Program-made: the position numbers and the translations under genes
In this document: positions 744 through 17,114 of the stretch, one piece after another
How the letters are laid out: the number at the start of each line of letters is the position of its first letter
How positions within the stretch are numbered: the first letter of the stretch is position 1
Notes under the pieces: model-generated
Told to the model about the DNA's origin: nothing
The model's database searches: none
The model's input: the letters and a program-made list of their open reading frames with translations, nothing else
Source: a virus
Lineage: Duplodnaviria > Caudoviricetes
IMG/VR virus record: IMGVR_UViG_3300034149_000113
Location: 1,050-65,049 of that record
Length of the DNA: 64,000 bases
Reading direction: 5' to 3' (one strand)

Positions 744-1214
744 ATGGACGCCTACTCGACCGAACGCTACCGGCTCAAAGCCACCCAAGAAAAAGAACTG
801 CGCACGATGGTCAGTGGCCACGTGCAAGCGCGTCAACAGCTTGAGGCCAAGCACAAGGCCGAGCTGGATGCCCTGCGCGCAGCGTACGCACAGCGCGGTC
901 AGGTCAAACTTGGCCGACCGATACGGCCGCGCCCCGACCCCGAGGCCGTGCGTGGACTGTGGCGCGCTGGCAAGACCGCTGCCGAGATGGCGACCGACCT
1001 GCGTACCACCAAGCAGCACATCTATCAGGTGCTCAGCACGCTGCCCGAGTACCACCGGGTATGGGACATGTTGAAGACTGGTGTATGGCTGGCCGAGATT
1101 GCTGAGGAACTCGATCTACCCATGGCTGCTATCCAAGCAGTCAAGCTGTCGGCACGCAAGCGCGGCCACGACCTGTCACGCGACGCACGCTCAGCCCAGT
1201 TCAAGGGCAAGTAA
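744..1214 (+). CDS. Putative DNA-binding protein with two HTH-like segments
   Basis: GKTAAEMATDLRTTKQHIYQVL and GVWLAEIAEELDLPMAAIQ resemble tandem HTH motifs. Confidence 0.6.
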   Translation: MDAYSTERYRLKATQEKELRTMVSGHVQARQQLEAKHKAELDALRAAYAQRGQVKLGRPIRPRPDPEAVRGLWRAGKTAAEMATDLRTTKQHIYQVLSTLPEYHRVWDMLKTGVWLAEIAEELDLPMAAIQAVKLSARKRGHDLSRDARSAQFKGK

Positions 1215-1335
1215 CCCTCATCCACCCCAAACACTAACCCAATTCGGAAAGGAGGACCGGCACGACCTCGCATACCGTGGCCCCCTGGCCAGGCGAAGGC
1301 GCAGTACCCCACTAACTGACTGAGGAGTTATCAGC

Positions 1336-1776
1336 ATGGCAACCCCGCAGAACGGCAAGTCCCGCAAGGGTGGCAAGAAGAACCGCAAGTTCGGCCGCAA
1401 CGCCGGGCGCGCCGCGTCCAACAAGACGCAGGAGCAGCGCACGCACGACAACAAGCGCAAGGCCATCAAGCGCGACGCCGACGCCAAGATCGCGGCCAAG
1501 CGCAAGAAGAACGACGGCTTCATCAAGGGCAGCGCCACCCCGCACGGCACCGCCCGGATGGAGCGGCGCACCAAGCAGCGCTGGGTCAAGGCCATGTCCA
1601 CGGCCAAGGCCAAGAAGGCCGAGGCGCGCAAGATCGCGGAAGCCGCGCTGCACGGCGGGCACATCGTCGCCCTGCCCACGGCGCAGTCGCTGGCCTTGGT
1701 GGCCGCGTGGCAGAGGGCGAAGGCCGCGCACGCCGCCCGCGCCGAGAACAACCGCAACAAGCTGGTGAAGGTGTAA
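1336..1776 (+). CDS. Highly basic K/R/A-rich protein (nucleic-acid binding or histone-like)
   Basis: GAGGAG SD; strong phage codon bias; extreme Lys/Arg/Ala content. Confidence 0.75.
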   Translation: MATPQNGKSRKGGKKNRKFGRNAGRAASNKTQEQRTHDNKRKAIKRDADAKIAAKRKKNDGFIKGSATPHGTARMERRTKQRWVKAMSTAKAKKAEARKIAEAALHGGHIVALPTAQSLALVAAWQRAKAAHAARAENNRNKLVKV

Positions 1777-2081
1777 TGATGAAGGCGCGCACCAAGTTCT
1801 ACATCGACACCAAGCTGGTCGAGGTCGAGCGCAAGCTGGTCATGCTGGCCGGAGCCACCGAGGAGCGGCTGGGCCTGCTGGAGAACGCACCACCGGTGAT
1901 CCCTGATCCGCCCAAGGCACCGTACCCCAACGTCATCAGCATGACCGAGCCCACGCTGAAGGCACTGGTGGCCGAGTTCGACCGGCTGCTCACCAACGCG
2001 CTGAAACAGGCCGAGACCGTCAACCGCAACCGCTTCGCCAACCTGGAGCAGCGCATCGCCACCTTGGAGGGCAAGTCCTAA
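1776..2081 (+). CDS. Hypothetical coiled-coil protein
   Basis: TAATG overlap with the upstream stop; start reassigned from the ORF track. Confidence 0.7.
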   Translation: MMKARTKFYIDTKLVEVERKLVMLAGATEERLGLLENAPPVIPDPPKAPYPNVISMTEPTLKALVAEFDRLLTNALKQAETVNRNRFANLEQRIATLEGKS

Positions 2082-2083
2082 TC

Positions 2084-2332
2084 ATGGAAGTCATCGACAA
2101 CGCCAACGACATCACGCTACAACCCGGCGAAGCGGCTATCGTCTTCCGCCTCAACAACGTGCACGTCTACATGCACAGCAACGAAGACGCCGCGCCGGCC
2201 AGCCAGCCCACGCAGATGGTGGCCATCGTGGCCACGCTGTTGAGCGCGAGCAACCGCGACCTGTGGGCCGAGCTGCGCTCGCGCTTCGACGCCAAGCTGG
2301 AACAACAGGAGCAGGACAAGCCAAAGCCATGA
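2084..2332 (+). CDS. Hypothetical protein
   Basis: GGAGGG SD; tightly packed operon. Confidence 0.7.
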   Translation: MEVIDNANDITLQPGEAAIVFRLNNVHVYMHSNEDAAPASQPTQMVAIVATLLSASNRDLWAELRSRFDAKLEQQEQDKPKP

Positions 2333-2661
2333 CCACATTCCTGTTCCTGCTCAAGTACGGCCCCGATGGGCCCGAGCTTGACGACTGCCTCGACGTCACC
2401 GTGGCCGATGGCTTTACTTTCAGCGACCTGCTCAAGGCCGAGCAGGTGGCCGTGCGCATGGGCCAGCCGCTGGACGTATCGGCGCAGCAACTCGCACGCG
2501 CAGCAAAGATGATCGGCTTGCGCGCACGCTTGGACGGTGCCTGCGACGGACCGTTCGTGCTCCGGCACGACGGCGACCTGTCACGCGATCAACTGCTCAA
2601 GCTGCTGCGCGATAAGGCGCTACTCAAGCGCGTTCGAGCTGAGTGCAGGATACAGCTATGA
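2329..2661 (+). CDS. Hypothetical protein
   Basis: ATGA overlap; MTTFLFLLKYG start. Confidence 0.65.
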   Translation: MTTFLFLLKYGPDGPELDDCLDVTVADGFTFSDLLKAEQVAVRMGQPLDVSAQQLARAAKMIGLRARLDGACDGPFVLRHDGDLSRDQLLKLLRDKALLKRVRAECRIQL

Positions 2662-2924
2662 AGGCGACTTGCATGGACGCACGCTTGTTTGAAAGCCTGC
2701 GCGACACCACGTCCCTGTTCCTCGCCTACAAGCTGCGCGTGCATTACCTGACTGAGGCCAACTTCAAGGGCACTGCAGTCATCGCTCGCAAGTTGCACGC
2801 GCTCGGCGTGCCGGTGGAAGTGGCCGCTTGGCTGCTCACCCCCGGCGCGCCCGGCGCGCCACCGGTGTCTTGGGTTCCGCACCAGCCCGAGGTGATCGAG
2901 ATTACGCCCTTGGTGCACCACTGA
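2658..2924 (+). CDS. Hypothetical protein
   Basis: ATGA overlap with the previous gene. Confidence 0.6.
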   Translation: MKATCMDARLFESLRDTTSLFLAYKLRVHYLTEANFKGTAVIARKLHALGVPVEVAAWLLTPGAPGAPPVSWVPHQPEVIEITPLVHH

Positions 2925-2944
2925 CTCACTGGAGAACTAACAGT

Positions 2945-3466
2945 ATGAACGCAAGCAACCTGAAGTCGGTGCTGGCCATCGTGGCCAACGCCATCGCCGT
3001 GAAAGCGGCGACCGAGAACGAGGAGCGCAACAAGCAGGCCGCGCTCGACTCCAAGGCCATGAACGAAAACCACGCCGCCAAGCGCGCCATCGTGTCCAAG
3101 CTCATCAAGAGCGCGCCCATCGACAAGTCCATCGCCATCGTCTGGCGCAGCACCGATGTGCAGAGCGACTACAGCTTCGAGGCCAAGCTGTCGCCGTGGG
3201 CGAAGGGCCTGCTCGACAAGCAGAGCGAGGATCACCGCGCCGACTGCGAGGCGCTCACCGAGAAGTACGCGGTGAGCACGCTGCGCTTCACCTACGGCAC
3301 CGGGAGCAACGACTACACCCACGTCAACGTGGGCAAGGCGCGCCGGGCCGCGTACGTCAAGCTGCGCGACGAGTACGACGCGCTGCGGGTGTCGCTGCTG
3401 ATGAGCGACGACAAGGCGGCAGCTGCGGCCATCCGTGCCTTCCAAGCCAAGATCGGGAAGCTGTAA
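2945..3466 (+). CDS. Hypothetical protein
   Basis: GGAG SD after ACTGACTCACT; strong codon bias. Confidence 0.75.
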   Translation: MNASNLKSVLAIVANAIAVKAATENEERNKQAALDSKAMNENHAAKRAIVSKLIKSAPIDKSIAIVWRSTDVQSDYSFEAKLSPWAKGLLDKQSEDHRADCEALTEKYAVSTLRFTYGTGSNDYTHVNVGKARRAAYVKLRDEYDALRVSLLMSDDKAAAAAIRAFQAKIGKL

Positions 3467-4077
3467 TGGCCACTGCCAAGAGCAAGGAGCAGCAGCGCAT
3501 CGCGCGCATACGCAACCACCCGGCCAACAAGAAAGCGTTGGCTGGGATGAAGCGCAAGTACGTGCGCAAGGTGCGCTCCGACGCGAGCGCGGCACCGGAA
3601 GCGGCCAAGTTCACCACCCGCACGCCGCCCATGAAGGACGTGATCGCCTACGTGGACGAGCGCTTGCTGTTCGTCGTCAACCACGAATCGGCGCACATGC
3701 AGGTGCTGCTGAAGAAGGCCAACGAGCGCATCGACAAGTTGCAGGTGTTCGTCAACCAGCAGGCCGATGCCATCGTCAAGCTGCAATTCCCGGCCGTGGC
3801 AGGCGGCAGGGGCAAGGTCGACATCATGCGCGACTTGTTCGACAACCCACCCCGCAGCTGGGAACTGATGGACTTGACCGGCATCCCCGGTCAGGCCGAC
3901 AAGCCCAAGGCACCCGACTGGCGCTCCGTCGTGATGGAGTCCTCGCGCAAGGAGAACGAGCGCTTGCGCTTGGAGGGTGTGCGCAAGGACGAGGTGATCG
4001 AGCGCCAGCGCAAGACCATCACCAAGCTGTGCACCATGGTGCCGCATGACGTGCTGAAGAAGGCCATGGAGGGATGA
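3466..4077 (+). CDS. Hypothetical protein (basic N-terminus, coiled coils)
   Basis: TAATG overlap; start reassigned to MATAKSK. Confidence 0.7.
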   Translation: MATAKSKEQQRIARIRNHPANKKALAGMKRKYVRKVRSDASAAPEAAKFTTRTPPMKDVIAYVDERLLFVVNHESAHMQVLLKKANERIDKLQVFVNQQADAIVKLQFPAVAGGRGKVDIMRDLFDNPPRSWELMDLTGIPGQADKPKAPDWRSVVMESSRKENERLRLEGVRKDEVIERQRKTITKLCTMVPHDVLKKAMEG

Positions 4078-4529
4078 TGCTCAACGATGTGATCTTCGAT
4101 GTTGACGGCACCCTGCTCGACATCCAGCACCGGGTGCACCTGATCCGGCCACCCAACGGCGGGAAGAAGGAGTGGCGTGCGTTCCGGGCGCAAGCTGTCA
4201 ACGACTCCATCATTGCCCCCATCGCCATGCTGGCGCGCATGCTCTACAACCGGCACGACGTGCGCATCATCATCAGCACCGGGCGCATGGAGGACGAGCG
4301 ACCTGTCACGACCGAGATGCTGGCCGCGCACGGGGTAAACTACAACCGCATGTACATGAGGAAGCAGGACGACTTCCGCGCCGACTCCGACATCAAGCGG
4401 GAGATGCTGGCGCAGATGCGCGGGGACGGCTTCAACCCGGTGCTGGTGTTCGATGACCGCCAGCAGGTGGTGGACATGTGGCGTGCTGAAGGGCTGACCT
4501 GTTGCCAGGTGGCACCGGGGCAGTTCTAA
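4074..4529 (+). CDS. HAD-family polynucleotide 3'-phosphatase (T4 PseT C-terminal-like)
   Basis: IFDVDGTL (DxDGT), STGR, RKQDDFRADSDIK and FDDRQQVVDMWR motifs typical of PNKP phosphatase domains. Confidence 0.85.
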   Translation: MMLNDVIFDVDGTLLDIQHRVHLIRPPNGGKKEWRAFRAQAVNDSIIAPIAMLARMLYNRHDVRIIISTGRMEDERPVTTEMLAAHGVNYNRMYMRKQDDFRADSDIKREMLAQMRGDGFNPVLVFDDRQQVVDMWRAEGLTCCQVAPGQF

Positions 4530-4537
4530 TAATCAAC

Positions 4538-4625
4538 GGGCAGTTGGGCGAACTGGATAAGCCACCGGGCTGTAACCCCGGAGTCGCGGCTGCGCGTGGA
4601 GGTTCGAGTCCTCCACTGCCCACCA
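4538..4625 (+). tRNA. tRNA-Tyr(GUA) with long variable arm and encoded CCA
   Basis: Acceptor GGGCAGT/ACTGCCC, discriminator A, CCA; anticodon stem CCGGG/CCCGG with loop CTGTAAC; T arm GGAGG-TTCGAGT-CCTCC. Confidence 0.95.
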
Positions 4626-4629
4626 GAAC

Positions 4630-5180: not shown

Positions 5181-5205
5181 CTTACTTACCGAGGGAGAGC
5201 CGGCG

Positions 5206-5478
5206 ATGGAAGGCAGGTTGAAGTGGAAGCGGGAAAAGCGTGGCCGCGTTATCCGCACGCTGTTCAAGATCGACGACGACGGACACATCAGCACCATGAG
5301 CCTCGTCGCTGCCATCAAGCGGCGAGGACACAACCGCTACACCGTGATGATCTACGAGCGCAACAACAGCCCGAGGTACTGGAGGACCGACACGCCGAAG
5401 GAGAAGTTCGACACCGAGGACATCCCGCTGGCGGCGGTCAAGACCATTGCGCTGCTGATGGCGCGCAACCAGAGCTAG
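5206..5478 (+). CDS. Hypothetical small beta-rich protein
   Basis: GAGGGAG SD; start reassigned to MEGRLKW. Confidence 0.65.
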   Translation: MEGRLKWKREKRGRVIRTLFKIDDDGHISTMSLVAAIKRRGHNRYTVMIYERNNSPRYWRTDTPKEKFDTEDIPLAAVKTIALLMARNQS

Positions 5479-5741: not shown

Positions 5742-5911
5742 AGCAGCATGGCCACCACAGGCGCGCCCGGCTGGCATATCTAAAAGCGGCCTGTGCAGGC
5801 GACGGGGTTTTGCGGTCTTCCCCTGTCGCCTACTCCTGAGTAGACAGTCCGGGCGGGGATTGTACCAATATGCCATCCGCCCCAGTACCCAACTCATTGA
5901 CTGGAGGTTAC

Positions 5912-6097
5912 ATGCACAGCATCGGCAACATCTTCCTGTTCCTGCGCTACTTCGTCGGCTTCATGTTCAGCGCGATCTTCAACGCGCCGCTGGCGGGTGT
6001 GCGCTACGCCGCCTTCCGCATCCACTTCAACGGCTGCAAGGAATGCCAAGCCAAGTACGCAGCTGGCCAGCGGCCCGACCTGTCACGCGAGGACTGA
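5912..6097 (+). CDS. Small putative membrane protein
   Basis: GGAGG SD; hydrophobic stretch IFLFLRYFVGFMFSAIF. Confidence 0.6.
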   Translation: MHSIGNIFLFLRYFVGFMFSAIFNAPLAGVRYAAFRIHFNGCKECQAKYAAGQRPDLSRED

Positions 6098-6671: not shown

Positions 6672-6901
6672 GCACCAGAATACGTCGCACCAGCGGAGCC
6701 AACGTGCGCAACCACGTCATGTCAGGAGCCAAGCCGTTCAGCGTCGACAAGGATGCCGTGACCATGCTGCTCGCTGCCTTCGGCTACCCGCAGCTAGGGT
6801 CTGTCCCGCATCCGTTCAAACACTCGCCCCTGCCTGCGGGGTGGTCCACCTGCACTTCCGTGATGAACGAAATGCTAGACGAGGAGGACATCGACACTTG
6901 A
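6668..6901 (+). CDS. Hypothetical protein
   Basis: GAGG SD; ATGA overlap. Confidence 0.55.
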   Translation: MSTRIRRTSGANVRNHVMSGAKPFSVDKDAVTMLLAAFGYPQLGSVPHPFKHSPLPAGWSTCTSVMNEMLDEEDIDT

Positions 6902-6967
6902 CACGCAGCACCCAGCACGTACCATTGGTTCACTCACTCAACGCAGCAGAAAAGGAGTCACTGACTT

Positions 6968-8232: not shown

Positions 8233-9138
8233 ATGCAACTCACGCAACTGAACGCGAAGGCCATGGCGGTCAAGCTGACCATGCGCCGCGCCAACCTGTC
8301 ACGCCGCGATGCCTTTGCCGAGGCATTCATTCAGGACGAGCTGGGCGACGTCGGCCTGACGGTGGCGAAGAAGCTGTTCCGCGACAAGGCCAACGAGGTC
8401 AACAAGCTGATGAGCGCGGTCAGCGAAATCTACACCTACCACCGGCGCAACACGCTGCCCTACATCGACAAGGGGCCGCGCATCCTACCCAACAACAACT
8501 ACCTGAGCTACGCCACGGAGATGCGCAACCGCATCGCCACAGTGGACGCCATGCTGGCGGCGATGATCCCGAACTACGACGCCTACGTGCAACAGGACAT
8601 TGCCTTCCGCACGGCGCAGGACCAGCACCTGAAGAGCAAGCCTGCCAGCTACAAGCCGCCGTGCACCGACGAGTACCCATCGGTGCTGGCGTTCAAGGAA
8701 GCCATGTCGTTCGACCTGCGCTTCAGCCCCTTGCCGGACGCCAAGCACTTCCTGTTCGACATCAGCGACGAAGACATGCAGGCCTTCGAGCGCTCGACCG
8801 AGCAGGCGGCGGCGCTCGCGCGTGGCGATGCAGTGCAGCGCATGCTGGCACCGCTTACGCACTTGGCCGAGAAGCTGTCCAAGCCGATTGGTGCCAAGGA
8901 CTCGATTTTCCGCGACAGCGCGGTGGAGAACATCATCGAAGGCATCAACGAGGCCAAGTCGCTGATGCTGGACGATTCGCCGGAGATTCACGCCACCATC
9001 AGCGAACTGGAGAAGAGCGTGGCGCATTGGTCGGCGCACCTGAACTGGATGCGCGAGTCGCCCATCAAGCGCAGCGAAGCGGCGAAGAAGATGGCCGACA
9101 TCGCGTCGCAAATGGGTGCCTTCATGAACCAGCCATGA
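8233..9138 (+). CDS. Conserved helical phage protein linked to AAA/vWA modules (DUF3150-like)
   Basis: TLPYIDKGPRILP and EYPS...F.FDLRFSPLP pattern; position between the AAA and vWA genes. Confidence 0.6.
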   Translation: MQLTQLNAKAMAVKLTMRRANLSRRDAFAEAFIQDELGDVGLTVAKKLFRDKANEVNKLMSAVSEIYTYHRRNTLPYIDKGPRILPNNNYLSYATEMRNRIATVDAMLAAMIPNYDAYVQQDIAFRTAQDQHLKSKPASYKPPCTDEYPSVLAFKEAMSFDLRFSPLPDAKHFLFDISDEDMQAFERSTEQAAALARGDAVQRMLAPLTHLAEKLSKPIGAKDSIFRDSAVENIIEGINEAKSLMLDDSPEIHATISELEKSVAHWSAHLNWMRESPIKRSEAAKKMADIASQMGAFMNQP

Positions 9139-9401
9139 GCGACTATCCAGAAAACAGAATCACTGAGAACGAGTGGACGTTCCGCTCCTTCCACGACGGC
9201 ACGGAGCAGTGGTACTACATGTCGTTCAACCTGACGGCGGAACGGGTCATCAACGGCCAGCCGGGGCGAGACCAGTGGCACATCGTGAACCGCGCCAACG
9301 ACAACAACGAGATGTACCCGCAGATCGTGGCAGGGCCGTTCCCCACGGCCAAGTCGGCACGGGCTGCGCTGCGGATACTGCTACGCACGGAGAAGGAATG
9401 A
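9135..9401 (+). CDS. Small hypothetical protein (VAGPFP family)
   Basis: ATGA overlap; paralog of the next gene. Confidence 0.65.
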   Translation: MSDYPENRITENEWTFRSFHDGTEQWYYMSFNLTAERVINGQPGRDQWHIVNRANDNNEMYPQIVAGPFPTAKSARAALRILLRTEKE

Positions 9402-9403
9402 CC

Positions 9404-9679
9404 ATGCTCGAAACCGTGGAGGAAATGGAGAGCGAGTGGGGGGTGAACTACTTCGGCATCAACAAGGACAACCCTTACATCTTCATGCGCAGGAAAGGAC
9501 ACTACACTGGCGACGCATCGGTGTATATCCGGCAGCTGCCGAAGAACAGCGGCAAGTTCTACATCCGTGACTACGATTATCCGAACACCAAGTACGGCGT
9601 GCTCGTTGCCGGTCCCTTCCCCGATCTCGACTCGGCCAAGGCTGCCTTCATCCTGCTCTACGGCAGGAGCAACAAATGA
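9404..9679 (+). CDS. Small hypothetical protein (VAGPFP family)
   Basis: AAGGA SD; shares VAGPFP..SA(R/K)AA with the previous gene. Confidence 0.65.
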   Translation: MLETVEEMESEWGVNYFGINKDNPYIFMRRKGHYTGDASVYIRQLPKNSGKFYIRDYDYPNTKYGVLVAGPFPDLDSAKAAFILLYGRSNK

Positions 9680-9894
9680 AGTTCGGCAAAATGTCCATCA
9701 AGTCCGACGCCGACATACGCAAGTGTGTCGTTGAACTGGAAATTGGTATGGACGACCTAAACGTCTTGACCTTCAGCATTACCGGAGTTCCATCCGGGGT
9801 TGCGGCAGAAATGCTGGTGAGGTGGAACACTTACCAGGACTTGAAAGACGAACTCAACTCACTCAAAGGAAACAACGATGGCGCAATTCAGTAA
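9676..9894 (+). CDS. Hypothetical protein
   Basis: ATGA overlap. Confidence 0.5.
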   Translation: MKFGKMSIKSDADIRKCVVELEIGMDDLNVLTFSITGVPSGVAAEMLVRWNTYQDLKDELNSLKGNNDGAIQ

Positions 9895-11068
9895 GCTCGA
9901 CAAGGCACGGGCCCAGATAGTTATGGACCATCCCTTTGTGGCCAGCATCCTCCTGCGGCACCCGATCATCGCCCGCAAGGACATCCCGACGCTGGCGGTC
10001 AACCAGCGGGGGCAAATCTACTACAACCCCGACTTCATCGAAGGGCTCACCGTGCCGCAGGTGGTGTGGGGCTTGAGCCACGAAGTGTTCCACCGCATCG
10101 GCCAGCACGTGCAGCGGCAGGGCAAGCGCAAGAAGGGCAAGTGGAACTACGCCACCGACGCGTGGATCAACGACACGCTGGACGAGGCCAACATCGGCAC
10201 GCGCATCGAGAACACGGTGAACATGCCCGGATCGCACAAGGAAACGTGCGAGGACATCTACGCCAAGCTGCCCGACAACGACGGCAAGGGGCCGAAGGGC
10301 AAGGAGAAGGGCAAGGGGCCACCGGGCGGCGATGGCGGCGGCGAGCAAGGCGACGACCCCATGGACGGCGACGGCATCGGTGATGACCTGCTGGATGAGG
10401 GCCAGCCGCTGTCCGAAGGCGAGCAGCGCGAGCTGGAAGCGCAGATCAAGGTCGAGGTTGCGGAAGCAGCGCAGGCGGCGAAGATGCGCGGCAACCTGCC
10501 AGCAGTTTTGCAGCAGTTCGCTTCCGACATCATCGACGTCAAGACGCCGTGGTTCGACATCCTTGAGCCGTGGATGGTGCAGAAGGCATCGCAGGACTAC
10601 AACTGGTCGCGGCCGAACAAGCGCTACAGCGCGCTCGACATCTACATGCCGAAGATGCAGAACGAGGCGTGCATGGGTCCGGTGGTCATCCAGGTCGACA
10701 TCAGTGGCTCGGTAAGCCAGGAAGAGATCAAACACTACAACGGCCACATGCGGCGCATCGTCGAATTGTGCAAACCGGAGAAGGTGCACGTCCTCTACAC
10801 CGACACCGGCGTGCACAAGCACGAAGAGTTCGACCGTGGCGAAGAGATGCAGATCAACTTCTACTCTGGCGGCGGCACCGACATGCGTGCGGGATACCAG
10901 TACATCAAGGATCACGGCATCGAAGCCGACGTGTTCATCACCTTGACCGACGGCTACACGCCGTTCCCCGAGAACGTGGACATCCCGTCGGCGTGGTGCA
11001 TCAGCAGCGACATCGTCGCCCCGGACGCGGCCGGCAAGACCATCCACTTCGAGATGGAGGAGAAGTGA
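9878..11068 (+). CDS. Metallopeptidase-like plus vWA domain protein (DUF2201-type)
   Basis: HEVFH zincin motif; Gly/Asp/Glu linker; MIDAS DISGS, TDT and GGGTD, TDG. Confidence 0.85.
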   Translation: MAQFSKLDKARAQIVMDHPFVASILLRHPIIARKDIPTLAVNQRGQIYYNPDFIEGLTVPQVVWGLSHEVFHRIGQHVQRQGKRKKGKWNYATDAWINDTLDEANIGTRIENTVNMPGSHKETCEDIYAKLPDNDGKGPKGKEKGKGPPGGDGGGEQGDDPMDGDGIGDDLLDEGQPLSEGEQRELEAQIKVEVAEAAQAAKMRGNLPAVLQQFASDIIDVKTPWFDILEPWMVQKASQDYNWSRPNKRYSALDIYMPKMQNEACMGPVVIQVDISGSVSQEEIKHYNGHMRRIVELCKPEKVHVLYTDTGVHKHEEFDRGEEMQINFYSGGGTDMRAGYQYIKDHGIEADVFITLTDGYTPFPENVDIPSAWCISSDIVAPDAAGKTIHFEMEEK

Positions 11069-11242
11069 TTGAAGCAGGGACGGATAAAGCGCAGGTGCCC
11101 GCTGTGCCGCCTGGGGATCAGGTACACAGCGGGCGGGTATATCCGAAAGCACACCTGGCATGGTGCACGGTGTGTCGCCAGCGGGCTGCTGTGGAAAGCG
11201 GCTCGCGTCGTCGCTCAAGTCGGCGAAAGGTTAAGTAGATGA
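11069..11242 (+). CDS. Small putative Zn-binding protein (57 aa, absent from the ORF track)
   Basis: TTG start after GGAGG; MKQGRIKRRCPLC...RKH...C; ATGA overlap with the next gene. Confidence 0.5.
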   Translation: MKQGRIKRRCPLCRLGIRYTAGGYIRKHTWHGARCVASGLLWKAARVVAQVGERLSR

Positions 11243-11502
11243 ACGGCGCGACCTATCACTGGGCCATCGTCGGCACGGGGGAAGCCGAAGTACGGCTCAT
11301 GGAAGTAAAAGACAACTACGCGTTCAACAAGCTAATCGCACGCGTAGTGTTGACCGTCGATGGTTGGAAAGCGACCATCGAAAACGTACCCACTAGCCTG
11401 CTGGTGGGGCACTTCGAGGAGTGCCAAGCAGCACAAGGGGCAGTGATGGCAGAACTCGTTGCCAACCGACTTACTGACAAGGGGAACCGACGTGGGCTGT
11501 GA
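11239..11502 (+). CDS. Small hypothetical protein (LVANRLT near C-terminus)
   Basis: ORF track; operon packing. Confidence 0.6.
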   Translation: MNGATYHWAIVGTGEAEVRLMEVKDNYAFNKLIARVVLTVDGWKATIENVPTSLLVGHFEECQAAQGAVMAELVANRLTDKGNRRGL

Positions 11503-11980
11503 TATTCACATCATGCTGGAACGAAGAATCTACGACCGCTGGGTGACCGTGAGCGACTTCGCTGCCATCCACAAACGAACTATGGATTCGGGGTTGAACG
11601 ACAAAGACTCCGCGCGCTACCTCTGGTGGCGGGTGAGCAACCGCAACTACGAGCTGTTCACGGCGTTGGCCGGTGTGCGCGGCGAGAAAGGAGAAGGCCC
11701 GGAGCCGCGAGGCTTTCCCGCCGACGCCGCCGACTGGACGCGCTTCTGCTTCGAGGGTTGGGGCGAGGACGCGCACAGCGCGTCGTGGATGGCGCTGCCG
11801 GAAGCGTTGCCGCTGTTCATCCGCCACAACAACATCAATATGGCGGATGTCGTGGCCGACCGATTGACCAACGGCAAAGACAAGGTGTTACTTGAACAGG
11901 CCGAGCACCTGTTCAATGTAGAAGTGGAGAAAGTCGCTCATTTGGAAGAGTTCCGCATCGTGTTTTGGTTTGACAATTGA
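11492..11980 (+). CDS. Conserved phage protein of the MGCDIH...FWFDN type
   Basis: GTG start; GCDIH, RNYELF..LAGVR, PRGFP.D, HSASW, RIVFWFDN. Confidence 0.75.
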   Translation: MGCDIHIMLERRIYDRWVTVSDFAAIHKRTMDSGLNDKDSARYLWWRVSNRNYELFTALAGVRGEKGEGPEPRGFPADAADWTRFCFEGWGEDAHSASWMALPEALPLFIRHNNINMADVVADRLTNGKDKVLLEQAEHLFNVEVEKVAHLEEFRIVFWFDN

Positions 11981-12018
11981 GTTGTCCCGTTCGATAACTA
12001 ACTGACAAGGAAACAGCA

Positions 12019-12879
12019 ATGAAAGAAGTGGAAATCGTCAAGCTCGACCTGTACCAACAACGACTGGCGTGGCTGCGAAGCCTGCGCAACAACCACAAGC
12101 GCAAGGCCATGGGGCGCAAGATGTACTACCACCAGGACGAGCAGGGCAACCTCGTCTACGTTTGGGAAGCGGGAGACGACCCGGAGCATCACTACACGCT
12201 GGCCACGCACGCGCCGGACGACACCATCACGCTATGCGCGCCGCAGCAGGCCGTGTGGCAAATGACGGCACAGCGGCGGATAGAGCTGATCTGCAACGGC
12301 CGCAGGCACCGCTACAACCACCAGCAGAACATCGGCCTGCACAGCGACAAGACGCGCCACCGGAACAAGAAGCAGCACATCCGCATCGTGGCCTACCACC
12401 AAGGGCTGACCTGGCCGAACAGCATGCCGTACGAGCCTGGCCTCAAGGTGAAGGACGCCTGCTTCCTCAACCTGGAAATCTGTCAGGACTACGTGCGCAG
12501 GCTCGACAGCCGGTCGGCTGCCCACGAAGTTCGCCGCAGCATCGAGCCCATGGTCAAGCTGACCAAGGTGCTGGGGCGCATGGACCAGCTCAACCCGGAG
12601 ATAGTCAAGTCTTCGGAACGGTTCAAGTGGGCCGACAAGCTGCTCGACAAGATTCCCGACATCTACAACCCAACGCCGAGGGACGCCGAGCTGATCTATC
12701 TCATCGGCTCGCGCAGCGTGCGCTCATGGCGCTACCCACGGATGACGGACGTCGAGAAGAAGGCGCACGACAAGAAGGTAGTGCTCCTTGGGCTGGCCAA
12801 GCTGCGCAAGGAGTTGTACGAGAAGCACCAGCTGTACACCTTCACCAAGGTGGATTGGAAACCGACACCGACTAACTAA
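12019..12879 (+). CDS. Hypothetical protein
   Basis: AAGGA SD; 286-aa ORF. Confidence 0.8.
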   Translation: MKEVEIVKLDLYQQRLAWLRSLRNNHKRKAMGRKMYYHQDEQGNLVYVWEAGDDPEHHYTLATHAPDDTITLCAPQQAVWQMTAQRRIELICNGRRHRYNHQQNIGLHSDKTRHRNKKQHIRIVAYHQGLTWPNSMPYEPGLKVKDACFLNLEICQDYVRRLDSRSAAHEVRRSIEPMVKLTKVLGRMDQLNPEIVKSSERFKWADKLLDKIPDIYNPTPRDAELIYLIGSRSVRSWRYPRMTDVEKKAHDKKVVLLGLAKLRKELYEKHQLYTFTKVDWKPTPTN

Positions 12880-12896
12880 CCAGAAAGGAAATCAGC

Positions 12897-13556
12897 ATGT
12901 CATTCGTAGGCATCAGCAGGACCCTGATGGACAACGTCAATCGGCAGATCAACAGCATGGAAGAAGCCGAGGCGAAGCAGCTCGAAGCGGTACTGCCGCA
13001 GCTCTCCGGCGGCGAGAGCTACGCGCAGCAGGCCATCTGGCAAGGGCACATGGAGTTCAGCACCACCCTGCCGAAGGCATGGCGCGTCAACGTCGAGGGC
13101 TACGTCCTGAAGTTCAACGTCATGATCGACGGCAAGTCGCACCAGTTCGACTCTTCCGGCACCTTCACCAAGAAACAGTCCGCGCCACGGGTCAAGAGCA
13201 CCGGCTACTACAACGATTCGTGGACGCCGGAGATCAAGTTCGACATCGGTGCAACGCCACCGGAGCTGCAGCCGGTGCTCGACTACCTGCTCGCCACCAA
13301 GCAGCGCGAAGAGCGCTGGGAAAAGGTGCGACTCGACGTCAAGAAGTTCCTGGGGTCGTGCAAGTCGGTCAATGAAGCCATCAAGCTGTGGCCGGATATC
13401 GTGATGTACCTGCCCGGCGACGTCGTCGAGAAGGTGGCCGAGAAGAAGACGCAGGCCAAGACGGAGAGCACGGCTGCGGCCATGCTGTCCTCCATGAATA
13501 CCGACGAGCTTACGTCGGCCGCTGTAATTGCCCGGTTGTCCGGGTTCAAGAAGTAA
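12897..13556 (+). CDS. Hypothetical protein, possibly Nmad5-like
   Basis: C-terminal L.SCKSVNEAIKLWP.I..YLP pattern resembles Nmad5; common AAA/vWA neighbour. Confidence 0.5.
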   Translation: MSFVGISRTLMDNVNRQINSMEEAEAKQLEAVLPQLSGGESYAQQAIWQGHMEFSTTLPKAWRVNVEGYVLKFNVMIDGKSHQFDSSGTFTKKQSAPRVKSTGYYNDSWTPEIKFDIGATPPELQPVLDYLLATKQREERWEKVRLDVKKFLGSCKSVNEAIKLWPDIVMYLPGDVVEKVAEKKTQAKTESTAAAMLSSMNTDELTSAAVIARLSGFKK

Positions 13557-13583
13557 ATCCGTCACTCACTCAAAGGAAACATC

Positions 13584-13955
13584 ATGACCGAAGTCGAGAC
13601 CAAAGCTGCATTGCAAGCCATCAAGCTGTTGAACGCGGTCGGCGCGAAGTACAAGATCATCTACCCCGACGGCACCGAGGTTGGTGAACTGGTGCTGGCC
13701 AAGGTGGAGCCGGAAGGGAAGAAGAAAATCACGCGCAGACGCGATTTCTCGCTGGCCTACGGCACCTACGCCAAGCTGATCCGGCCGATGTTGAAGAGCA
13801 CCGATGTCGGCCAAGTGGCATCCATCCCCATTGCGCCGTACAACGCGGAGCGACTGCGTAGCGCCGCCACGGCGATAGCACACCACCTGTGGGGAAACGG
13901 TTCGCACACGTCGGCCATCACCAAGACGCACGTTGAAATCCTGCGCATCGCATAA
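13584..13955 (+). CDS. Hypothetical protein
   Basis: AAGGA SD. Confidence 0.7.
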   Translation: MTEVETKAALQAIKLLNAVGAKYKIIYPDGTEVGELVLAKVEPEGKKKITRRRDFSLAYGTYAKLIRPMLKSTDVGQVASIPIAPYNAERLRSAATAIAHHLWGNGSHTSAITKTHVEILRIA

Positions 13956-14161
13956 TGCCCATCACACCCTACACCACCAGATCGGGAGTCAAGATCGGCT
14001 TGCTCTACGAGCAGCCTCTGGCTTCCACTGACGGGGACATGGAGCTGCTGCAACGAGCATTGCTGCTCAAGCCGAAAAGGCCTTGGCGAAATAGAGTCAA
14101 GCTGGCGCTCCAGTATCTCGTTATCATCACCGCCGTACTTACCCTTTCAGGACTGACATGA
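13955..14161 (+). CDS. Small protein with C-terminal hydrophobic helix
   Basis: TAATG overlap. Confidence 0.55.
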   Translation: MPITPYTTRSGVKIGLLYEQPLASTDGDMELLQRALLLKPKRPWRNRVKLALQYLVIITAVLTLSGLT

Positions 14162-14379
14162 ACCATGAACGAACCAACTGGAGCGCAGCACTCGAAGCGA
14201 GGTTGTCGCGGATGGAGTCGCGGCTGGTGCAGCTCATGCTGCATTTCGGGCTAGACCCGTACAGCAAGACGTATTCGGCGCAACACCCGGAGCAGCACAC
14301 TGGCGGCAGCGGCGACAACCCCAACCCGCACCCGACCACCACCACCATCTCGGAGGAACGCAATGGCAACCGAAAATAG
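14158..14379 (+). CDS. Hypothetical protein
   Basis: ATGA overlap. Confidence 0.55.
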   Translation: MNHERTNWSAALEARLSRMESRLVQLMLHFGLDPYSKTYSAQHPEQHTGGSGDNPNPHPTTTTISEERNGNRK

Positions 14380-14587
14380 CCTGAATGCAATCGAGATGGC
14401 GCGCAAGGCCTACACCAAGTTGGTCGACATGCCCGGTGGCGACGAGCGCGACAAGCTGATCCAGATCGCCAACGACGGCTACACCACGGCGCTGCTGATG
14501 TGGCGCAACCCGGAGATGGAGCTGCAGCCGCACCAGCAGGAGTCGCTGGACAAGCTGCGCGCTGCTTTGGGAGAGAGCGATGGCTAG
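14363..14587 (+). CDS. Hypothetical protein
   Basis: GGAGG SD. Confidence 0.65.
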   Translation: MATENSLNAIEMARKAYTKLVDMPGGDERDKLIQIANDGYTTALLMWRNPEMELQPHQQESLDKLRAALGESDG

Positions 14588-14909
14588 CGACAAAAACTCT
14601 CCGTTCGGCACTTCCATCACTACCATGTCTCCGACAGAGCACATCCATCAGGAGAAGGCCCGGTTGATGCGGCAGTTGATGGACGCGCAGCAGGTAGCGC
14701 CCAACAAAGTGTGGATGCACCAGGAGAACGCTGCCTACCAACAGCCGATCCCGTTCAACCCGAAGGAAGTTCACCTGGCGGTGGAGCGAACGGAGAACGG
14801 CTTCATCCTGACGCTCGCCGGAACCAAGTACGTGGCCAAGGATGCCGACGAACTGAAGGATATCTTCATCACCGCGCTGGTCGCGCTCAAACTGGAGACC
14901 CGTAAGTGA
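14580..14909 (+). CDS. Hypothetical protein (C-terminal LVALKLE)
   Basis: GGAG SD. Confidence 0.65.
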   Translation: MASDKNSPFGTSITTMSPTEHIHQEKARLMRQLMDAQQVAPNKVWMHQENAAYQQPIPFNPKEVHLAVERTENGFILTLAGTKYVAKDADELKDIFITALVALKLETRK

Positions 14910-15217
14910 GCAGACGAATCAAGGCACCACTGCGCGTACGCATCGCCCGCTGGTTGATGCGCGACGAAGGGGCGCAGCCATCATGCGAGCCGGCAAGAGA
15001 CCCGTTCGGTGAAGACGAATCTGTCGAGCAGAACGAGATCAAGATGTTCATCAAGCCGGCGATGAACGGGCGCATCGTCACCATGCAGCAATTCAGACAA
15101 ATCGGCACCAGTGGGCTCAAGTCGAACTGGCACCAGACAATCTACCTGGTGCCGGACGGCGAGGACCTCATCAAAGCCATCACCGTGCTGCTAGTCAGCT
15201 CCAACCTTGGGAAATGA
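14906..15217 (+). CDS. Hypothetical protein
   Basis: GTGA overlap. Confidence 0.6.
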   Translation: MSRRIKAPLRVRIARWLMRDEGAQPSCEPARDPFGEDESVEQNEIKMFIKPAMNGRIVTMQQFRQIGTSGLKSNWHQTIYLVPDGEDLIKAITVLLVSSNLGK

Positions 15218-17114
15218 CGTGACTCCACTGACTTTGGATTTTGAAACGCACTACACCAAGGACTACTCGCTGTCGAAGATGTCCACCGAGGCCTACATCC
15301 GCAGCAATCGCTTCGAGGTCATCGGCGTTGGTGTCAAGGACGGCGACAAGGACGCCGAGTGGTTCAGCGGCAGCTACACGCAGATCAACGACTACCTGCA
15401 CTCGCTCAACATCCACAAGCGCTACCTGCTGGCGCACAACACGGCCTTCGACGGGGCCATCCTGGCGTGGCACTTCAACATCAGACCGCAGTACTACCTG
15501 GACACGCTGTCGATGTCCCGACCTGTCACGGGGGCCACGGTTGGCGGCAGTCTGAAGAAACTGGCCAAGCAGTTCCTGCTGGGCGAGAAGGGCGACGAGG
15601 TCATCGCCGCCATCGGCAAGCATCGCGCCGACTTCACTGCCTACGACCTGCAGCAGTACGGCGAGTACTGCAAGAACGACTGTGTGCTCACCTACTTGCT
15701 GTGGAACATCATGCAGCAGTACAGCACGCCGAAGGAGCTGTACGTCATCGACATGCTGCTGCGCATGTTCATCGACCCGGTGCTGCGGCTCGACGTCGAG
15801 ACGCTGAGCAGGCACCTGATCAGGGTGCAGCAGAAGAAGGCCGACCTCATGGCCAGGGTCGACGCAACGATAGGCGGGCGCGCGGAGCTGATGTCCAACA
15901 ACAAGCTGGCACAAGTTTTGGAATTGCTTGGTGTGGACCCACCTATGAAGGTGTCTAAGCAGACCAACCTGATGACCTACGCCTTCAGCAAGAACGACGA
16001 GGCCTTCAAGGCGCTGCTGCAACACAACGACGTGCGCGTGCAGGCCGTGATCGCAGCGCGCCTTGGCATCCGCTCGACGCTGGAGGAGACGCGCACGCAG
16101 GCCTTCATCGACGCGTCGTATCGTGGGGCACTGGCCATCCTACTCAACTACTACGGCGCGCACACCGGACGGGCCTCAGGTGCCGACGGCATCAACCTGC
16201 AGAACCTACCGCGTGGCGGCGCGCTGCGGCGGGCCATGCTGGCCCCACCCGGCCACGTTCTAGTGGCTGGCGACTCGTCGCAGATCGAAGCGCGCATCGT
16301 GGCGTGGCTGGCCGGGCAGGCCGATCTGGTGGCCGACTTCGCGGCCGGCGTGGACATCTACAGCAGCTTCGCCAGCGACGTCTACGAGCGCCCCGTCGAC
16401 CGCAAGCGGGTGGAGATCGACAAGGCCACCAACATCCCGTTCAACCCCGACAAGCTGGAAGGCTTCGTCGGCAAGACCTGCATCCTCGGCCTCGGCTTCG
16501 GCATGGGCGACGAGCGACTGCGGCAGACGCTGCGCATCGGACAGGGCGGCATCTCGGTGGACCTGCCGCTGCATGTCTGCACCGGGTTCGTCGACCGCTA
16601 CCGCGCCAAATACGACAAGATCGACGCGCTGTGGGACGTGGCGCAGCAGGCCATGGTGGCAGTGTCGAAGGGCTTCGTTGCCACCTTCGGTGACGTGCTG
16701 CCGCTGCTGTGGGATCAGGACGGCATCCACCTGCCCAACGGCATGATGATCCGCTACGCCAACCTGCGGCGCGAGAAAGGGGACTACTACTACGACGGTC
16801 GCTACGGTCCGGTGAAACTGTTCGGCGGGAAGATCATCGAGAACGTGGTCCAGGCCCTGGCGCGCATCGTGGTGTTCGATCAAATGTGCAGGGTCGAGAA
16901 GAACTTGCGCAAATGGGACAACGTCCGGCTGGGGAAGAGGTTCCGGGTTGTGCTCTCAGCTCATGACGAAATCGTAGCTTGCGTGCCGACTCAGGTGGAG
17001 CTGCGCACCAAGGAGATGATGGTCAGAGTCATGGGCATGGTGCCGAAGTGGGCGGTGGGGCTGCCGATCTCTTGCGAGGTCGGCAGCGGTCCCAACTACG
17101 CCGAGTGCAAGTGA
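15207..17114 (+). CDS. polA: Family A DNA polymerase with 3'-5' exonuclease
   Basis: Exo DFET/AHN..FD/Y.KND; TGR; NLQNLPR; motif A DSSQIEAR; motif B K...LGLGFG; motif C HDE. Confidence 0.95.
   Translation: MGNDVTPLTLDFETHYTKDYSLSKMSTEAYIRSNRFEVIGVGVKDGDKDAEWFSGSYTQINDYLHSLNIHKRYLLAHNTAFDGAILAWHFNIRPQYYLDTLSMSRPVTGATVGGSLKKLAKQFLLGEKGDEVIAAIGKHRADFTAYDLQQYGEYCKNDCVLTYLLWNIMQQYSTPKELYVIDMLLRMFIDPVLRLDVETLSRHLIRVQQKKADLMARVDATIGGRAELMSNNKLAQVLELLGVDPPMKVSKQTNLMTYAFSKNDEAFKALLQHNDVRVQAVIAARLGIRSTLEETRTQAFIDASYRGALAILLNYYGAHTGRASGADGINLQNLPRGGALRRAMLAPPGHVLVAGDSSQIEARIVAWLAGQADLVADFAAGVDIYSSFASDVYERPVDRKRVEIDKATNIPFNPDKLEGFVGKTCILGLGFGMGDERLRQTLRIGQGGISVDLPLHVCTGFVDRYRAKYDKIDALWDVAQQAMVAVSKGFVATFGDVLPLLWDQDGIHLPNGMMIRYANLRREKGDYYYDGRYGPVKLFGGKIIENVVQALARIVVFDQMCRVEKNLRKWDNVRLGKRFRVVLSAHDEIVACVPTQVELRTKEMMVRVMGMVPKWAVGLPISCEVGSGPNYAECK

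What the first reader, a model, noticed from the sequence alone, without database searches (positions are those of the whole stretch)
1169..15530. Strand-polarised 12-mer CGACCTGTCACG written into early coding sequences
Seen: exact copies at 1169, 2574, 4299, 6076 and 15519, plus CAACCTGTCACG at 8292. All are on the + strand, all in the first 16 kb and all inside CDSs. I found no copy on the - strand or in the late arm. They are read in two frames (DLSR in four genes, RPVT in the phosphatase and polymerase) and force codons that are rare here (TCA, CGA, CCT), so selection appears to act on the nucleic acid rather than the protein. Five exact 12-mers in 64 kb is far above chance. Inference: a Chi/KOPS-like directional signal or a binding site for a phage protein that protects, translocates or transcribes the first-entering DNA, or an RNA element on the early transcript.
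Basis: partly seen in the sequence, partly recalled or inferred. Interest (0 to 1): 0.72.

Follow-up and report, generated by a model that had tools for sequence, protein, structure and literature searches.

The report
One-strand DNA word, probable phage nick sites
A short DNA word is written seven times on one strand of the early half of this uncultured phage genome and kept in its relatives. It closely resembles the word at which some Pseudomonas phages carry programmed single-strand nicks, so it most likely marks nick sites, but no nick could be tested here.

Summary
CGACCTGTCACG occurs 5 times exactly and once as CAACCTGTCACG. All copies are on the + strand and it is the most repeated 12-mer of the window. 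The selected core is the 9-mer ACCT[GA]TCAC. A seventh copy (ACCTATCAC) lies at 11251.

This is not an N4-like phage. I found no phage RNA polymerase, and the giant protein is a polyvalent protein.

In five related uncultured phage genomes the same word, consensus A[CG]CT[AG]TCA[CT], gives with this genome 50 copies on the early-gene strand against 2 on the other (about 11 and 9 expected). The copies sit at roughly collinear positions and are read in all three frames. More distant relatives and phage KPP25 lack the word.

The word matches 7 of 9 positions of WACTRTGAC, including the R. WACTRTGAC is the mapped nick site of tf and LUZ24-like phages. Those phages show the same one-strand rule, copy number, crowding toward the left end, G/A switch and frequent placement at gene starts.

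Best reading (about 0.5): recognition sites of a phage-encoded, strand-specific nicking activity. I could not identify the enzyme.

Rivals: a promoter-like or other transcription signal, an RNA element, or a Chi/KOPS-like or priming signal.

Earlier notes of this scan reached similar readings for similar words on other phage DNA.

The parts
1169..1180 (+). Copy 1, CGACCTGTCACG (core 1171-1179). It lies 13 codons before the stop of the 156-aa gene 744-1214 and is read as DLSR.
2574..2585 (+). Copy 2, CGACCTGTCACG. It lies 27 codons before the end of ORF 2263-2661 and 58 nt upstream of the next gene start (2643). Read as DLSR.
4299..4310 (+). Copy 3, CGACCTGTCACG, in the middle of the polynucleotide kinase/phosphatase-like gene 4074-4529. 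Read as RPVT. tRNA-Tyr follows at 4538-4625.
6076..6087 (+). Copy 4, CGACCTGTCACG, in the last codons of ORF 5870-6097 (DLSRED*). It lies 11 nt upstream of the next ATG (6099), with GAGGA in between.
8292..8303 (+). Copy 5, variant CAACCTGTCACG, at codon 20 of the conserved 301-aa gene 8233-9138. Read as NLSR. A 96.7%-identical strain keeps it.
11249..11260 (+). Copy 7 (new), CGACCTATCACT with core ACCTATCAC, the spelling used by the relatives. It sits at codons 4-7 of a predicted 87-codon ORF 11239-11499 and is read as TYH. G001 has the word at the matching N-terminus (STYHW).
15519..15530 (+). Copy 6, CGACCTGTCACG, at codon 104 of DNA polymerase 15207-17114. Read as RPVT. The site is orthologous in G007, G008 and G009.

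Best explanation
The word A[CG]CT[AG]TCA[CT] (here C[GA]ACCT[GA]TCAC[GT]) is the recognition site of a phage-encoded, strand-specific DNA enzyme, most likely a nickase. Packaged genomes would then carry localized single-strand interruptions on the sense (+) strand of the early and middle arm. By analogy with tf (TACT^RTGAC) the cut would fall at ACCT^RTCAC. What is shown: the word is real and confined to one strand. It is imposed on coding sequence in all three frames and conserved in number, polarity and approximate position across a clade. It resembles the mapped nick word of LUZ24/tf-like phages. What is inferred: that a nick is made at all, where it falls, and that the enzyme is phage-encoded. 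What nicks are for is unknown even in the model phages. The crowding toward the presumed first-entering end, on the non-template strand and often at gene starts, is most compatible with a role in DNA entry, packaging or early expression.
For: (1) Polarity and enrichment. The window has 7 copies on + and 0 on -, against about 0.2 expected for the G-spelling 9-mer alone per strand. All seven fall in the first ~26-27% of the genome (0.27^7 is about 1e-4).
(2) Clade conservation. With consensus ASCTRTCAY the + / - counts are G000 7/0, G001 9/0, G006 10/1, G007 8/0, G008 8/0 and G009 8/1. The total is 50/2 against about 11 and 9 expected. G002-G005 and G010 are at expectation and KPP25 shows no such word.
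(3) Collinear positions. Relative to the ATPase start, sites recur at about -1000, -30 to -200, +1200 to +1500, +2900 to +3400, +5200 to +6400 and +7500 to +9100. 6 of 7 sites are kept in a roughly 90-96% identical strain. 2 of 4 aligned sites are kept at about 70% identity, where 7% of 9-mers survive (P = 0.027).
(4) Nucleotide-level selection. All three frames are used (TYH, [DNHQ]LS[RQ], P[VI]T) with rare codons. In DNA polymerase the clade has RP[VI]TG where about 70 outgroup sequences have RA[LI][HD]G. G001 keeps SRPVTG with other codons and has no word there.
(5) Resemblance to a proven nick word. tf has 14 mapped nicks at TACT/RTGMC on one strand, 11 of them in the left half. LUZ24, PaP3 and MR299-2 carry 8-9 copies, mainly TACTATGAC where tf has mainly TACTGTGAC, at similar positions (PMC3517423). 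[quoted passage not shown] An excess of sequencing reads at GTACTATGAC was reported in PMC3634792 and PMC4482731. I verified LUZ24's 9 copies as + only, at 4.2-65% of the genome. Our core matches 7 of 9 positions with the R at the same place. A random motif does this with P of about 0.018, or about 3e-4 if the R must coincide. LUZ24 also has G on both flanks, as here.
(6) Shared habits. tf nicks sci1, sci4 and sci11 fall on start codons, and sci9 and sci10 just inside genes. Here sites lie at -11 nt, codon 4 and codon 20 of genes, with similar cases in relatives.
(7) Rivals are weakened. There is no RNA structure, no sigma-70-like promoter at any site and no phage RNA polymerase.
Against: No nick can be observed in an assembled sequence, so the central claim rests on analogy. 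The word differs from WACTRTGAC at 2 of 9 positions. The phage is not related to LUZ24/tf-like phages: profile searches find only two shared small proteins, and neither tracks the word. I found no candidate nickase present in all six word-bearing genomes. The VRR-NUC and RecB-family nucleases also occur in relatives without the word, and an endonuclease VII-like gene is not conserved in the clade. Enrichment is limited to the sense strand of the early arm, so a transcript-level or transcription-coupled role fits the distribution equally well. One conserved late-arm copy in G006 and G009 lies on the late genes' sense strand. Depletion of one-mismatch neighbours is only suggestive in G000 (4.8% of permuted words are as low) and absent in G001.
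Confidence: 0.5

Rival explanations
1. The word is a promoter or another transcription signal of the early and middle arm. It could be a box read by a phage-encoded activator or sigma-like factor with host RNA polymerase, or an ops-like pause or antitermination element read on the non-template strand.
For: All enriched copies are in the sense orientation of a 25-kb arm that has only one sigma-70-like consensus match in 20 kb. Several copies sit just upstream of, or within the first 25 codons of, genes: 6076 is 11 nt before an ATG, and G007, G008 and G009 have a copy 33-77 nt upstream of the ATPase gene. ops elements are also 12-nt words read on the non-template strand (own knowledge).
Against: I found no phage RNA polymerase: PF00940 and both N4 RNAPII subunits give nothing, and the giant protein has only an LPD23 domain. 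There is no conserved -10-like element or fixed spacing to start codons. Conserved copies lie deep inside long essential genes: DNA polymerase codon ~100 in four genomes, primase codon 355, and the VWA protein. In LUZ24 the homologous-looking word does not coincide with the annotated promoters. In LUZ19 the nick word showed no relation to transcript abundance (PMC3604761).
Confidence: 0.17
2. The word acts on the early transcript as an RNA element. It could be a cleavage site of a sequence-specific endoribonuclease or the binding site of a translational regulator, as with T4 RegB and RegA near early start codons.
For: All enriched copies are sense-oriented. Many lie near translation starts. 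The one conserved late-arm copy in G006 and G009 is also sense.
Against: Folding of 99-nt stretches around the seven sites is no better than shuffles, with z from -0.6 to +2.1. Many copies are far from any start codon. The closest known look-alike word is a proven DNA nick site. Late-arm copies on the antisense strand also exist in G006, G007 and G008 at about chance level.
Confidence: 0.1
3. The word is another strand-specific DNA signal that involves no nick. It could be a Chi-like or KOPS-like word that regulates or orients a translocating enzyme (the phage's own helicase and RecB-family nuclease, the packaging motor or an entry motor), or a preferred priming site.
For: The word follows strict polarity and is under-represented on the other strand in the clade (2 seen against about 9 expected). 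The phage encodes a helicase, a RecB-family exonuclease, a Gam-like protein and a primase-helicase.
Against: Known Chi and KOPS words are 5-8 bases long, host-specific and frequent throughout a replicon (own knowledge). Here there are 7-10 copies confined to one arm, and the same word is kept across relatives of 42-62% G+C. A top-strand Chi in the left arm would act only on an enzyme arriving from the right, after it had passed 36 kb of unprotected late genes. Known primase sites are 3-5 bases long (own knowledge).
Confidence: 0.18
4. The repeats are chance, or a by-product of a shared peptide motif or of recent duplication.
For: Four of the six original copies share the frame DLSR/NLSR.
Against: 0 of 100 shuffles reach the count. 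Similarity ends at the 12-mer, so these are not duplications. Three frames and unrelated proteins are involved. The codons are rare. The polar word is conserved in five other genomes.
Confidence: 0.02

Closest known systems
Localized single-strand interruptions (sci sites) of Pseudomonas phage tf and LUZ24-like phages (Krylovvirus, Bruynoghevirus), with word (G)TACT^RTGMC / WACTRTGAC
   Same: Both are 9-mers with a CTRT centre and an AC end. 7 of 9 positions match, including the R, and G flanks the word in LUZ24 as here. In both, all copies lie on one strand, with 7-14 copies per genome. Copies are dense in the first quarter of the left, early arm and thin out to the right. They lie inside genes in any frame and often at gene starts. 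Positions are similar among relatives. The main spelling switches between G and A from phage to phage. Genome layout is also shared: two convergent arms with a terminator between them, tRNA-Tyr in the early arm, and a phrog_1448 early gene near the left end.
   Different: Positions 2 and 7 of the word differ (C and C here, A and G there). This phage is about 63.6 kb and carries a 3619-aa polyvalent protein. It shares no replication or structural genes with the LUZ24-like phages that BLASTP or my profiles could detect. Nicks are mapped experimentally there and only predicted here. Of LUZ24's and tf's copies, one and two respectively lie in the late arm on the same DNA strand. Here enrichment is limited to the early arm.
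Nick sites of phiKMV-like phages (CGACNNNNNCCTA^CTCCGG) and of T5/BF23
   Same: They are strand-specific, sequence-associated nicks at few sites per genome, and their function is unknown. The phiKMV word also begins with CGAC and contains CCT.
   Different: The phiKMV word is longer and bipartite, with 3-4 copies, intergenic, on the non-coding strand. T5 nicks have a loose consensus that also occurs un-nicked.
   Same: They are oriented words read on one strand by a translocating enzyme.
   Different: They are much shorter and far more frequent, host-specific and spread genome-wide. They are not limited to 7 copies in one arm of a phage, and the orientation here does not fit protection of the first-entering end.
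Phage RNA polymerase promoters (T7-like, N4 middle promoters, LUZ7 hairpin middle promoters)
   Same: They are conserved sense-strand words spaced along early and middle genes.
   Different: They need a phage RNA polymerase, and I found none. The N4 middle promoter is a minimal AT-rich stretch from -7 to +2 (PMC4496689). LUZ7 middle promoters are GC-rich hairpins (PMC9163698). The word here has neither feature.

Membership tests
Nick-associated words of tf/LUZ24-like phages (localized single-strand interruptions) | A physical, ligatable nick (3'-OH/5'-P) in virion DNA at the word | not testable with these tools
   Only assembled sequence is available. No contig of the clade ends at a word.
Nick-associated words of tf/LUZ24-like phages (localized single-strand interruptions) | Word equals WACTRTGAC / TACTRTGMC | tested here: not met
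   The word here is ACCT[GA]TCAC. 7 of 9 positions match, including the R. The record has one AACTGTGAC, on the - strand, which is the chance level.
Nick-associated words of tf/LUZ24-like phages (localized single-strand interruptions) | All copies on one DNA strand | tested here: met
   7/0 in this genome and 50/2 in six clade genomes.
Nick-associated words of tf/LUZ24-like phages (localized single-strand interruptions) | About 8-14 copies, crowded in the left or early arm | tested here: met
   7-10 copies per genome. Spacing is 1.4-2.2 kb at first and then widens. LUZ24 and tf positions were verified.
Nick-associated words of tf/LUZ24-like phages (localized single-strand interruptions) | Word and approximate positions kept among related phages, with G/A variation at the R | tested here: met
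   G000 mostly uses G and the relatives use A.
Nick-associated words of tf/LUZ24-like phages (localized single-strand interruptions) | The phage belongs to the LUZ24/tf gene-sharing cluster | tested here: not met
   BLASTP and clade-profile searches against LUZ24 and tf find only phrog_1448 and a small membrane protein. The terminase and capsid PHROG families differ, and the portal shares only a weak hit.
Chi sites | A short (5-8 nt) host-specific word, oriented to stop RecBCD/AddAB entering from a DNA end | tested here: not met
   The core is 9-12 nt long. The same word is kept in relatives of 42-62% G+C. The top-strand orientation in the left arm faces an enzyme coming from the right. The host genome is unknown, so host over-representation could not be tested.
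Phage RNA polymerase promoters (T7/N4 type) | A cognate single-subunit RNA polymerase encoded by the phage | tested here: not met
   PF00940 and N4 RNAP1 and RNAP2 give no match in the record. The giant protein has only an LPD23 domain and polyvalent-protein PHROG matches, with no PDB match. The searches had no positive control, so a very divergent enzyme is not excluded.
Structured RNA element | Local fold more stable than shuffled sequence, or a conserved hairpin | tested here: not met
   z-scores run from -0.6 to +2.1 at the seven sites.

The most novel reading that the evidence does not exclude
Polar words with a CTRT core would be dialects of one widespread system of programmed, strand-specific marking of the first-entering arm of podophage-like genomes. 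Examples are ASCTRTCAY here, WACTRTGAC in LUZ24/tf-like phages, and similar words noted by this scan in other uncultured phages. The system would be strong enough to rewrite three consecutive residues of a DNA polymerase. Its reader would not be any nuclease recognisably shared by the lineages. It could instead be a fast-evolving small protein, a packaging or virion protein, or a conserved host factor.
Probability: 0.3. Interest if true: 0.75.

Novelty: new variant of a known kind. Interest (0 to 1): 0.52.

Why it matters
Programmed nicks in phage DNA have been known for about 50 years in T5. They are known since 2009-2012 in Pseudomonas podophages. Neither their function nor, as far as I could find, the enzyme in LUZ24-like phages is known. 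Here a two-letter variant of the mapped nick word behaves in the same way in a gene-wise unrelated, uncultured clade. If it is confirmed, three things follow. First, such nicks are far more widespread than the few cultured groups suggest. Second, the CTRT(C/G)A(C/Y) core and the crowding at the left end are the conserved essentials. Third, comparing gene content between independent word-bearing lineages becomes a way to find the nickase and the function. There is also a practical point. Such words distort sequencing coverage, and recoding or synthesis of these phages would silently remove or create them.

Tried and rejected
(1) N4-like middle promoter. This was my first idea, from a remembered GACCTG motif. 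I rejected it. The phage is not N4-like and has no vRNAP or RNAPII. The papers I read gave no N4 middle-promoter sequence. AGACCTG in N4 is only mildly enriched and mostly lies in a common codon context.
(2) Exact 12-mer in distant relatives G001-G005. It is absent, at control level. This led me to search the relatives for their own repeated words.
(3) phrog_1448 early protein as the determinant. It is shared by G000, G001, LUZ24 gp2 and tf_02. I rejected it because it is absent from G006-G009, which carry the word. It is also present in Ralstonia phages RSB1 and RSB3 and Variovorax phage VPv81, which lack any such word.
(4) The small membrane protein (G000 19370-19762, similar to tf_29 and LUZ24 gp26). 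It is also present in relatives without the word.
(5) Presence/absence profiling. Too many genes are clade-specific, including the whole structural module, to single out a reader. The only clade-specific early proteins (73 aa and 99 aa) look helical and have no nuclease motifs.
(6) Endonuclease VII-like gene 61441-61845. It is not conserved in the clade.
(7) Pfam scans of about 30 early proteins gave no nickase-like domain beyond VRR-NUC and PD-(D/E)XK.
(8) Contig ends as a trace of nicks. There is no coincidence with the word.
(9) Depletion of one-mismatch neighbours. The signal is weak.
(10) Megablast of the first 20 kb against cultured phages gave no match.

Full report
1. The observation. 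CGACCTGTCACG occurs exactly at 1169, 2574, 4299, 6076 and 15519, and as CAACCTGTCACG at 8292. All copies are on the + strand and none on the - strand. Dinucleotide-preserving shuffles give 0.73 hits on average and never 6. It is the most repeated 12-mer of the window, and the whole record holds no other copy. An alignment of 150-nt flanks shows that similarity ends at the word, apart from a frequent CGA after it, so these are not duplicated segments. Local GC3 shows that all six copies lie in real coding frames. Four are read as [DN]LSR and two as RPVT. The codons used are rare here: TCA is 3.9% of Ser, CGA 3.2% of Arg and CCT 7.3% of Pro. The probability of the nucleotides given the peptide is 0.019 (DLSR) and 0.0003 (RPVT).

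2. What the genome is. The window is positions 1050-65049 of a 65,049-bp IMG/VR record whose first 1,429 bases recur at its end. One genome unit is therefore about 63.6 kb. Genes run rightward from about 62.6 kb, through the junction, to 25.4 kb. This arm is early genes and replication: polynucleotide kinase, tRNA-Tyr, a MoxR-type ATPase, a zincin-VWA protein, DNA polymerase A, a RecB-family nuclease, VRR-NUC, a helicase, a Gam-like protein and a primase-helicase. Genes run leftward from 61.8 kb to 25.5 kb: terminase, portal, capsid and a 3619-aa giant protein. A terminator-like hairpin with a T run lies between the two arms. I first suspected an N4-like phage and its middle promoters, but this is wrong. 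PF00940 and both N4 RNAPII subunits find nothing. The giant protein has only an LPD23 (polyvalent protein) domain and matches to other giant phage proteins, with no PDB match. The nearest named phages by DNA polymerase (36-37% identity) are Rhizobium phage RHph_TM3_14A and Pseudomonas phage KPP25.

3. The word in relatives. Distant uncultured relatives (DNA polymerase 44-46% identical, G002-G005) lack the 12-mer. A search with the ATPase found a closer clade (55-62% identity). In those contigs the most repeated strand-specific word is CACCTATCAC. This is the same word with A in place of G at one position. Using the core ACCT[GA]TCAC, I found a seventh copy in the window, at 11251 (ACCTATCAC, + strand). 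In G001 position 2 may be G. In G006-G008 the last base may be T. With the consensus A[CG]CT[AG]TCA[CT], the counts on the early-gene strand against the other strand are 7/0 (this genome), 9/0, 10/1, 8/0, 8/0 and 8/1. That totals 50 against 2, where a second-order Markov model expects about 11 and 9. Five more distant relatives are at expectation, and KPP25 has no such word. Enrichment is confined to the early and middle arm. The few late-arm copies, in either orientation, are at or below chance.

4. Positions and frames. Relative to the ATPase start, the copies form roughly collinear arrays across the clade. They recur at about -1000, -30 to -200, +1200 to +1500 (the N-terminus of the conserved 301-aa protein, including window copy 8292), +2900 to +3400 (the VWA gene), near +4100 to +4300 (including window copy 11251 and its G001 counterpart), +5200 to +6400 (the end of a 73-aa gene) and +7500 to +9100 (DNA polymerase). 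There is also turnover. A strain roughly 90-96% identical to G009 keeps 6 of 7 copies. G006, at about 70% identity, keeps 2 of 4 aligned copies where only 7% of all 9-mers survive (P = 0.027). The word is read as TYH, as [DNHQ]LS[RQ] or as P[VI]T, depending on the frame.

The DNA polymerase site is the most instructive. This phage, G007, G008 and G009 carry the word there and encode [RK]P[VI]TG. About 70 outgroup polymerases have RA[LI][HD]G at that place. G001 encodes SRPVTG, like this phage, but with the codons CGG CCG GTG ACC, so it has no word. The simplest reading is that the word was written into the polymerase of the clade ancestor at the cost of three residues. G001 would later have lost it by synonymous change. 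This order of events is inferred, not shown.

5. What it is not. Folding of 99 nt around each site is no more stable than shuffles. The only sigma-70-like match in the first 20 kb, at 6898-6925, is unrelated to the word. Nothing is conserved at a fixed distance on either side of the word.

6. The closest known thing. Pseudomonas putida phage tf carries 14 mapped, ligatable nicks at TACT^RTGMC. All are in the top strand and 11 lie in the left half. LUZ24, PaP3 and MR299-2 have 8-9 copies of the word at similar fractional positions, mainly as TACTATGAC where tf has mainly TACTGTGAC (PMC3517423). [quoted passage not shown] There, 88% of copies lie at least partly in coding sequences, often at their beginning and mostly on the coding strand (PMC11780129). 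An excess of sequencing reads at GTACTATGAC was reported for LUZ24-like isolates (PMC3634792, PMC4482731).

I checked LUZ24 directly. It has nine copies, all on +, at 4.2, 7.3, 11.7, 14.1, 18.4, 29.1, 45.5, 55.6 and 65.4% of the genome, mostly flanked by G. In the tf record, sci1, sci4 and sci11 coincide with start codons and sci9 and sci10 lie just inside genes.

Our core ACCTRTCAC matches WACTRTGAC at 7 of 9 positions, with the R in the same place. A random 9-mer with one two-fold position does this in 1.8% of trials over shifts and strands, or in 0.03% if the R must coincide. If the left end is placed in the divergent intergenic region near 62.1 kb (an inference), the seven copies lie at about 4, 6, 9, 12, 15, 20 and 27% of the genome. 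This is close to the LUZ24 and tf series. Word, polarity, number, gradient, gene-start habit, positional conservation and the G/A switch all agree with an experimentally established nick system.

7. Limits of the analogy. This phage is not a relative of LUZ24 or tf. BLASTP and profiles built from the clade find only two shared small proteins. The first is the phrog_1448 early protein near the left end. It is missing from G006-G009, which have the word. It is present in Ralstonia and Variovorax autographiviruses that lack the word. The second is a small membrane protein that also occurs in relatives without the word. No nuclease is both universal in and specific to the clade. The resemblance could reflect a very divergent common enzyme, convergence, or a conserved host factor.

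Enrichment is limited to the sense strand of one arm, so a transcription-coupled or RNA-level role fits the distribution as well as a DNA-strand rule does. The single conserved late-arm copy in G006 and G009 is sense-oriented, whereas three other late-arm copies are antisense. All of these are compatible with chance.

8. Verdict. The word is a real, selected, strand-specific signal read on nucleic acid by a factor that co-evolves with a clade of uncultured phages. The best-supported mechanism is site- and strand-specific nicking (probability about 0.5). The rivals are a promoter or other transcription signal (0.17), another polar DNA signal such as a Chi/KOPS-like or priming site (0.18), an RNA element (0.10), and chance or a protein by-product (0.02). 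The remainder covers mechanisms I have not named.

Earlier notes of this scan describe similar one-strand words (for example ATCTATCA and TACTGTGAC-containing words) in other uncultured phages, with the same reading. These are unchecked AI notes and I do not count them as evidence. One of them did prompt the check that widened the consensus here.

Noticed in passing
window 1-378 = 63623-64000 (record G000 1-1429 = 63621-65049): The record carries a 1,429-bp terminal redundancy. A phrog_1448 gene starts 8 nt from the record's first base, so the redundancy is more likely an arbitrary break of a circular or concatemeric assembly than the physical end. Three relatives (G001, G006, G009) have exactly 127-bp overlaps, which looks like an assembler k-mer artefact.
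   Followed up: partly
G002 (L090-L093) 9291-12942 and 37432-42618; G003 (L094-L097) 24-3558 and 62146-63633: Distant relatives have their own strand-specific repeats. G002 has TATGTAGACCCACGTCA (6-7 copies within 3.6 kb) and TTGTTAGTGCGGCA (6 copies). G003 has TTTCTAACTTTGTTAGG (about 8 copies), which contains a CTAAC-TTT-GTTAG hairpin. These may be lineage-specific early promoters or operators.
   Followed up: no
L107 6443-6768; L111 8436-8756: Clusters of GAATATTC / TGGAATATTCCA palindromes lie 1.3-3.5 kb upstream of the ATPase gene in two clade members. They are a candidate operator or origin array. I did not look for the equivalent in the window.
   Followed up: no
window 62632-63330 (+), also G000 8-757: An early protein of family phrog_1448 (E 1.6e-27) is shared with LUZ24 gp2, tf_02, G001 and Ralstonia phages RSB1, RSB3, RS-PII-1 and phiAp1. 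[quoted passage not shown] Its function is unknown and it does not track the word.
   Followed up: yes
window 15519-15530 and the orthologous DNA polymerase codons in 75 related loci: The clade has RP[VI]TG where outgroups have RA[LI][HD]G. G001 keeps the residues with other codons. This looks like a DNA word having rewritten three residues of an essential enzyme.
   Followed up: partly
window 25455-25490: A terminator-like hairpin (AGCCCGA...TCGGGCT) followed by a T run fills the 60-nt gap between the convergent primase-helicase gene and the giant-protein gene.
   Followed up: no
window 6898-6925: This is the only sigma-70-like consensus match in the first 20 kb (TTGACA, 16 nt, TACCAT). It lies about 40 nt upstream of the ATPase gene. 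Canonical promoters are otherwise fewer than in shuffles.
   Followed up: no
window 4538-4625: tRNA-Tyr (GTA) lies in the early arm, directly after the polynucleotide kinase/phosphatase-like gene. LUZ24-like phages also carry a tRNA-Tyr (PMC4482731).
   Followed up: no
window 61155-61439 (-), 17961-18320 (+), 20806-21189 (+), 61441-61845 (-): An Acb2/Tad1 hairpin-domain protein (E 1e-16) lies at the head of the late arm. There is also a VRR-NUC nuclease (E 1.5e-5), a Mu Gam/Gp157-like protein just below the Pfam cut-off (26.8 vs 27 bits), and a small protein with an endonuclease VII-like C-terminus (PHROG E 1.6e-7) that is not conserved in the clade.
   Followed up: partly
G001 34495-34680; KPP25 (L144) 29981-30090: Both have in-frame short tandem repeat arrays in early genes: a 6-bp ACGGCT/ACGGCA unit in G001 and a 9-bp unit (AGCCAGCCC, about 16 copies) in KPP25.
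   Followed up: no
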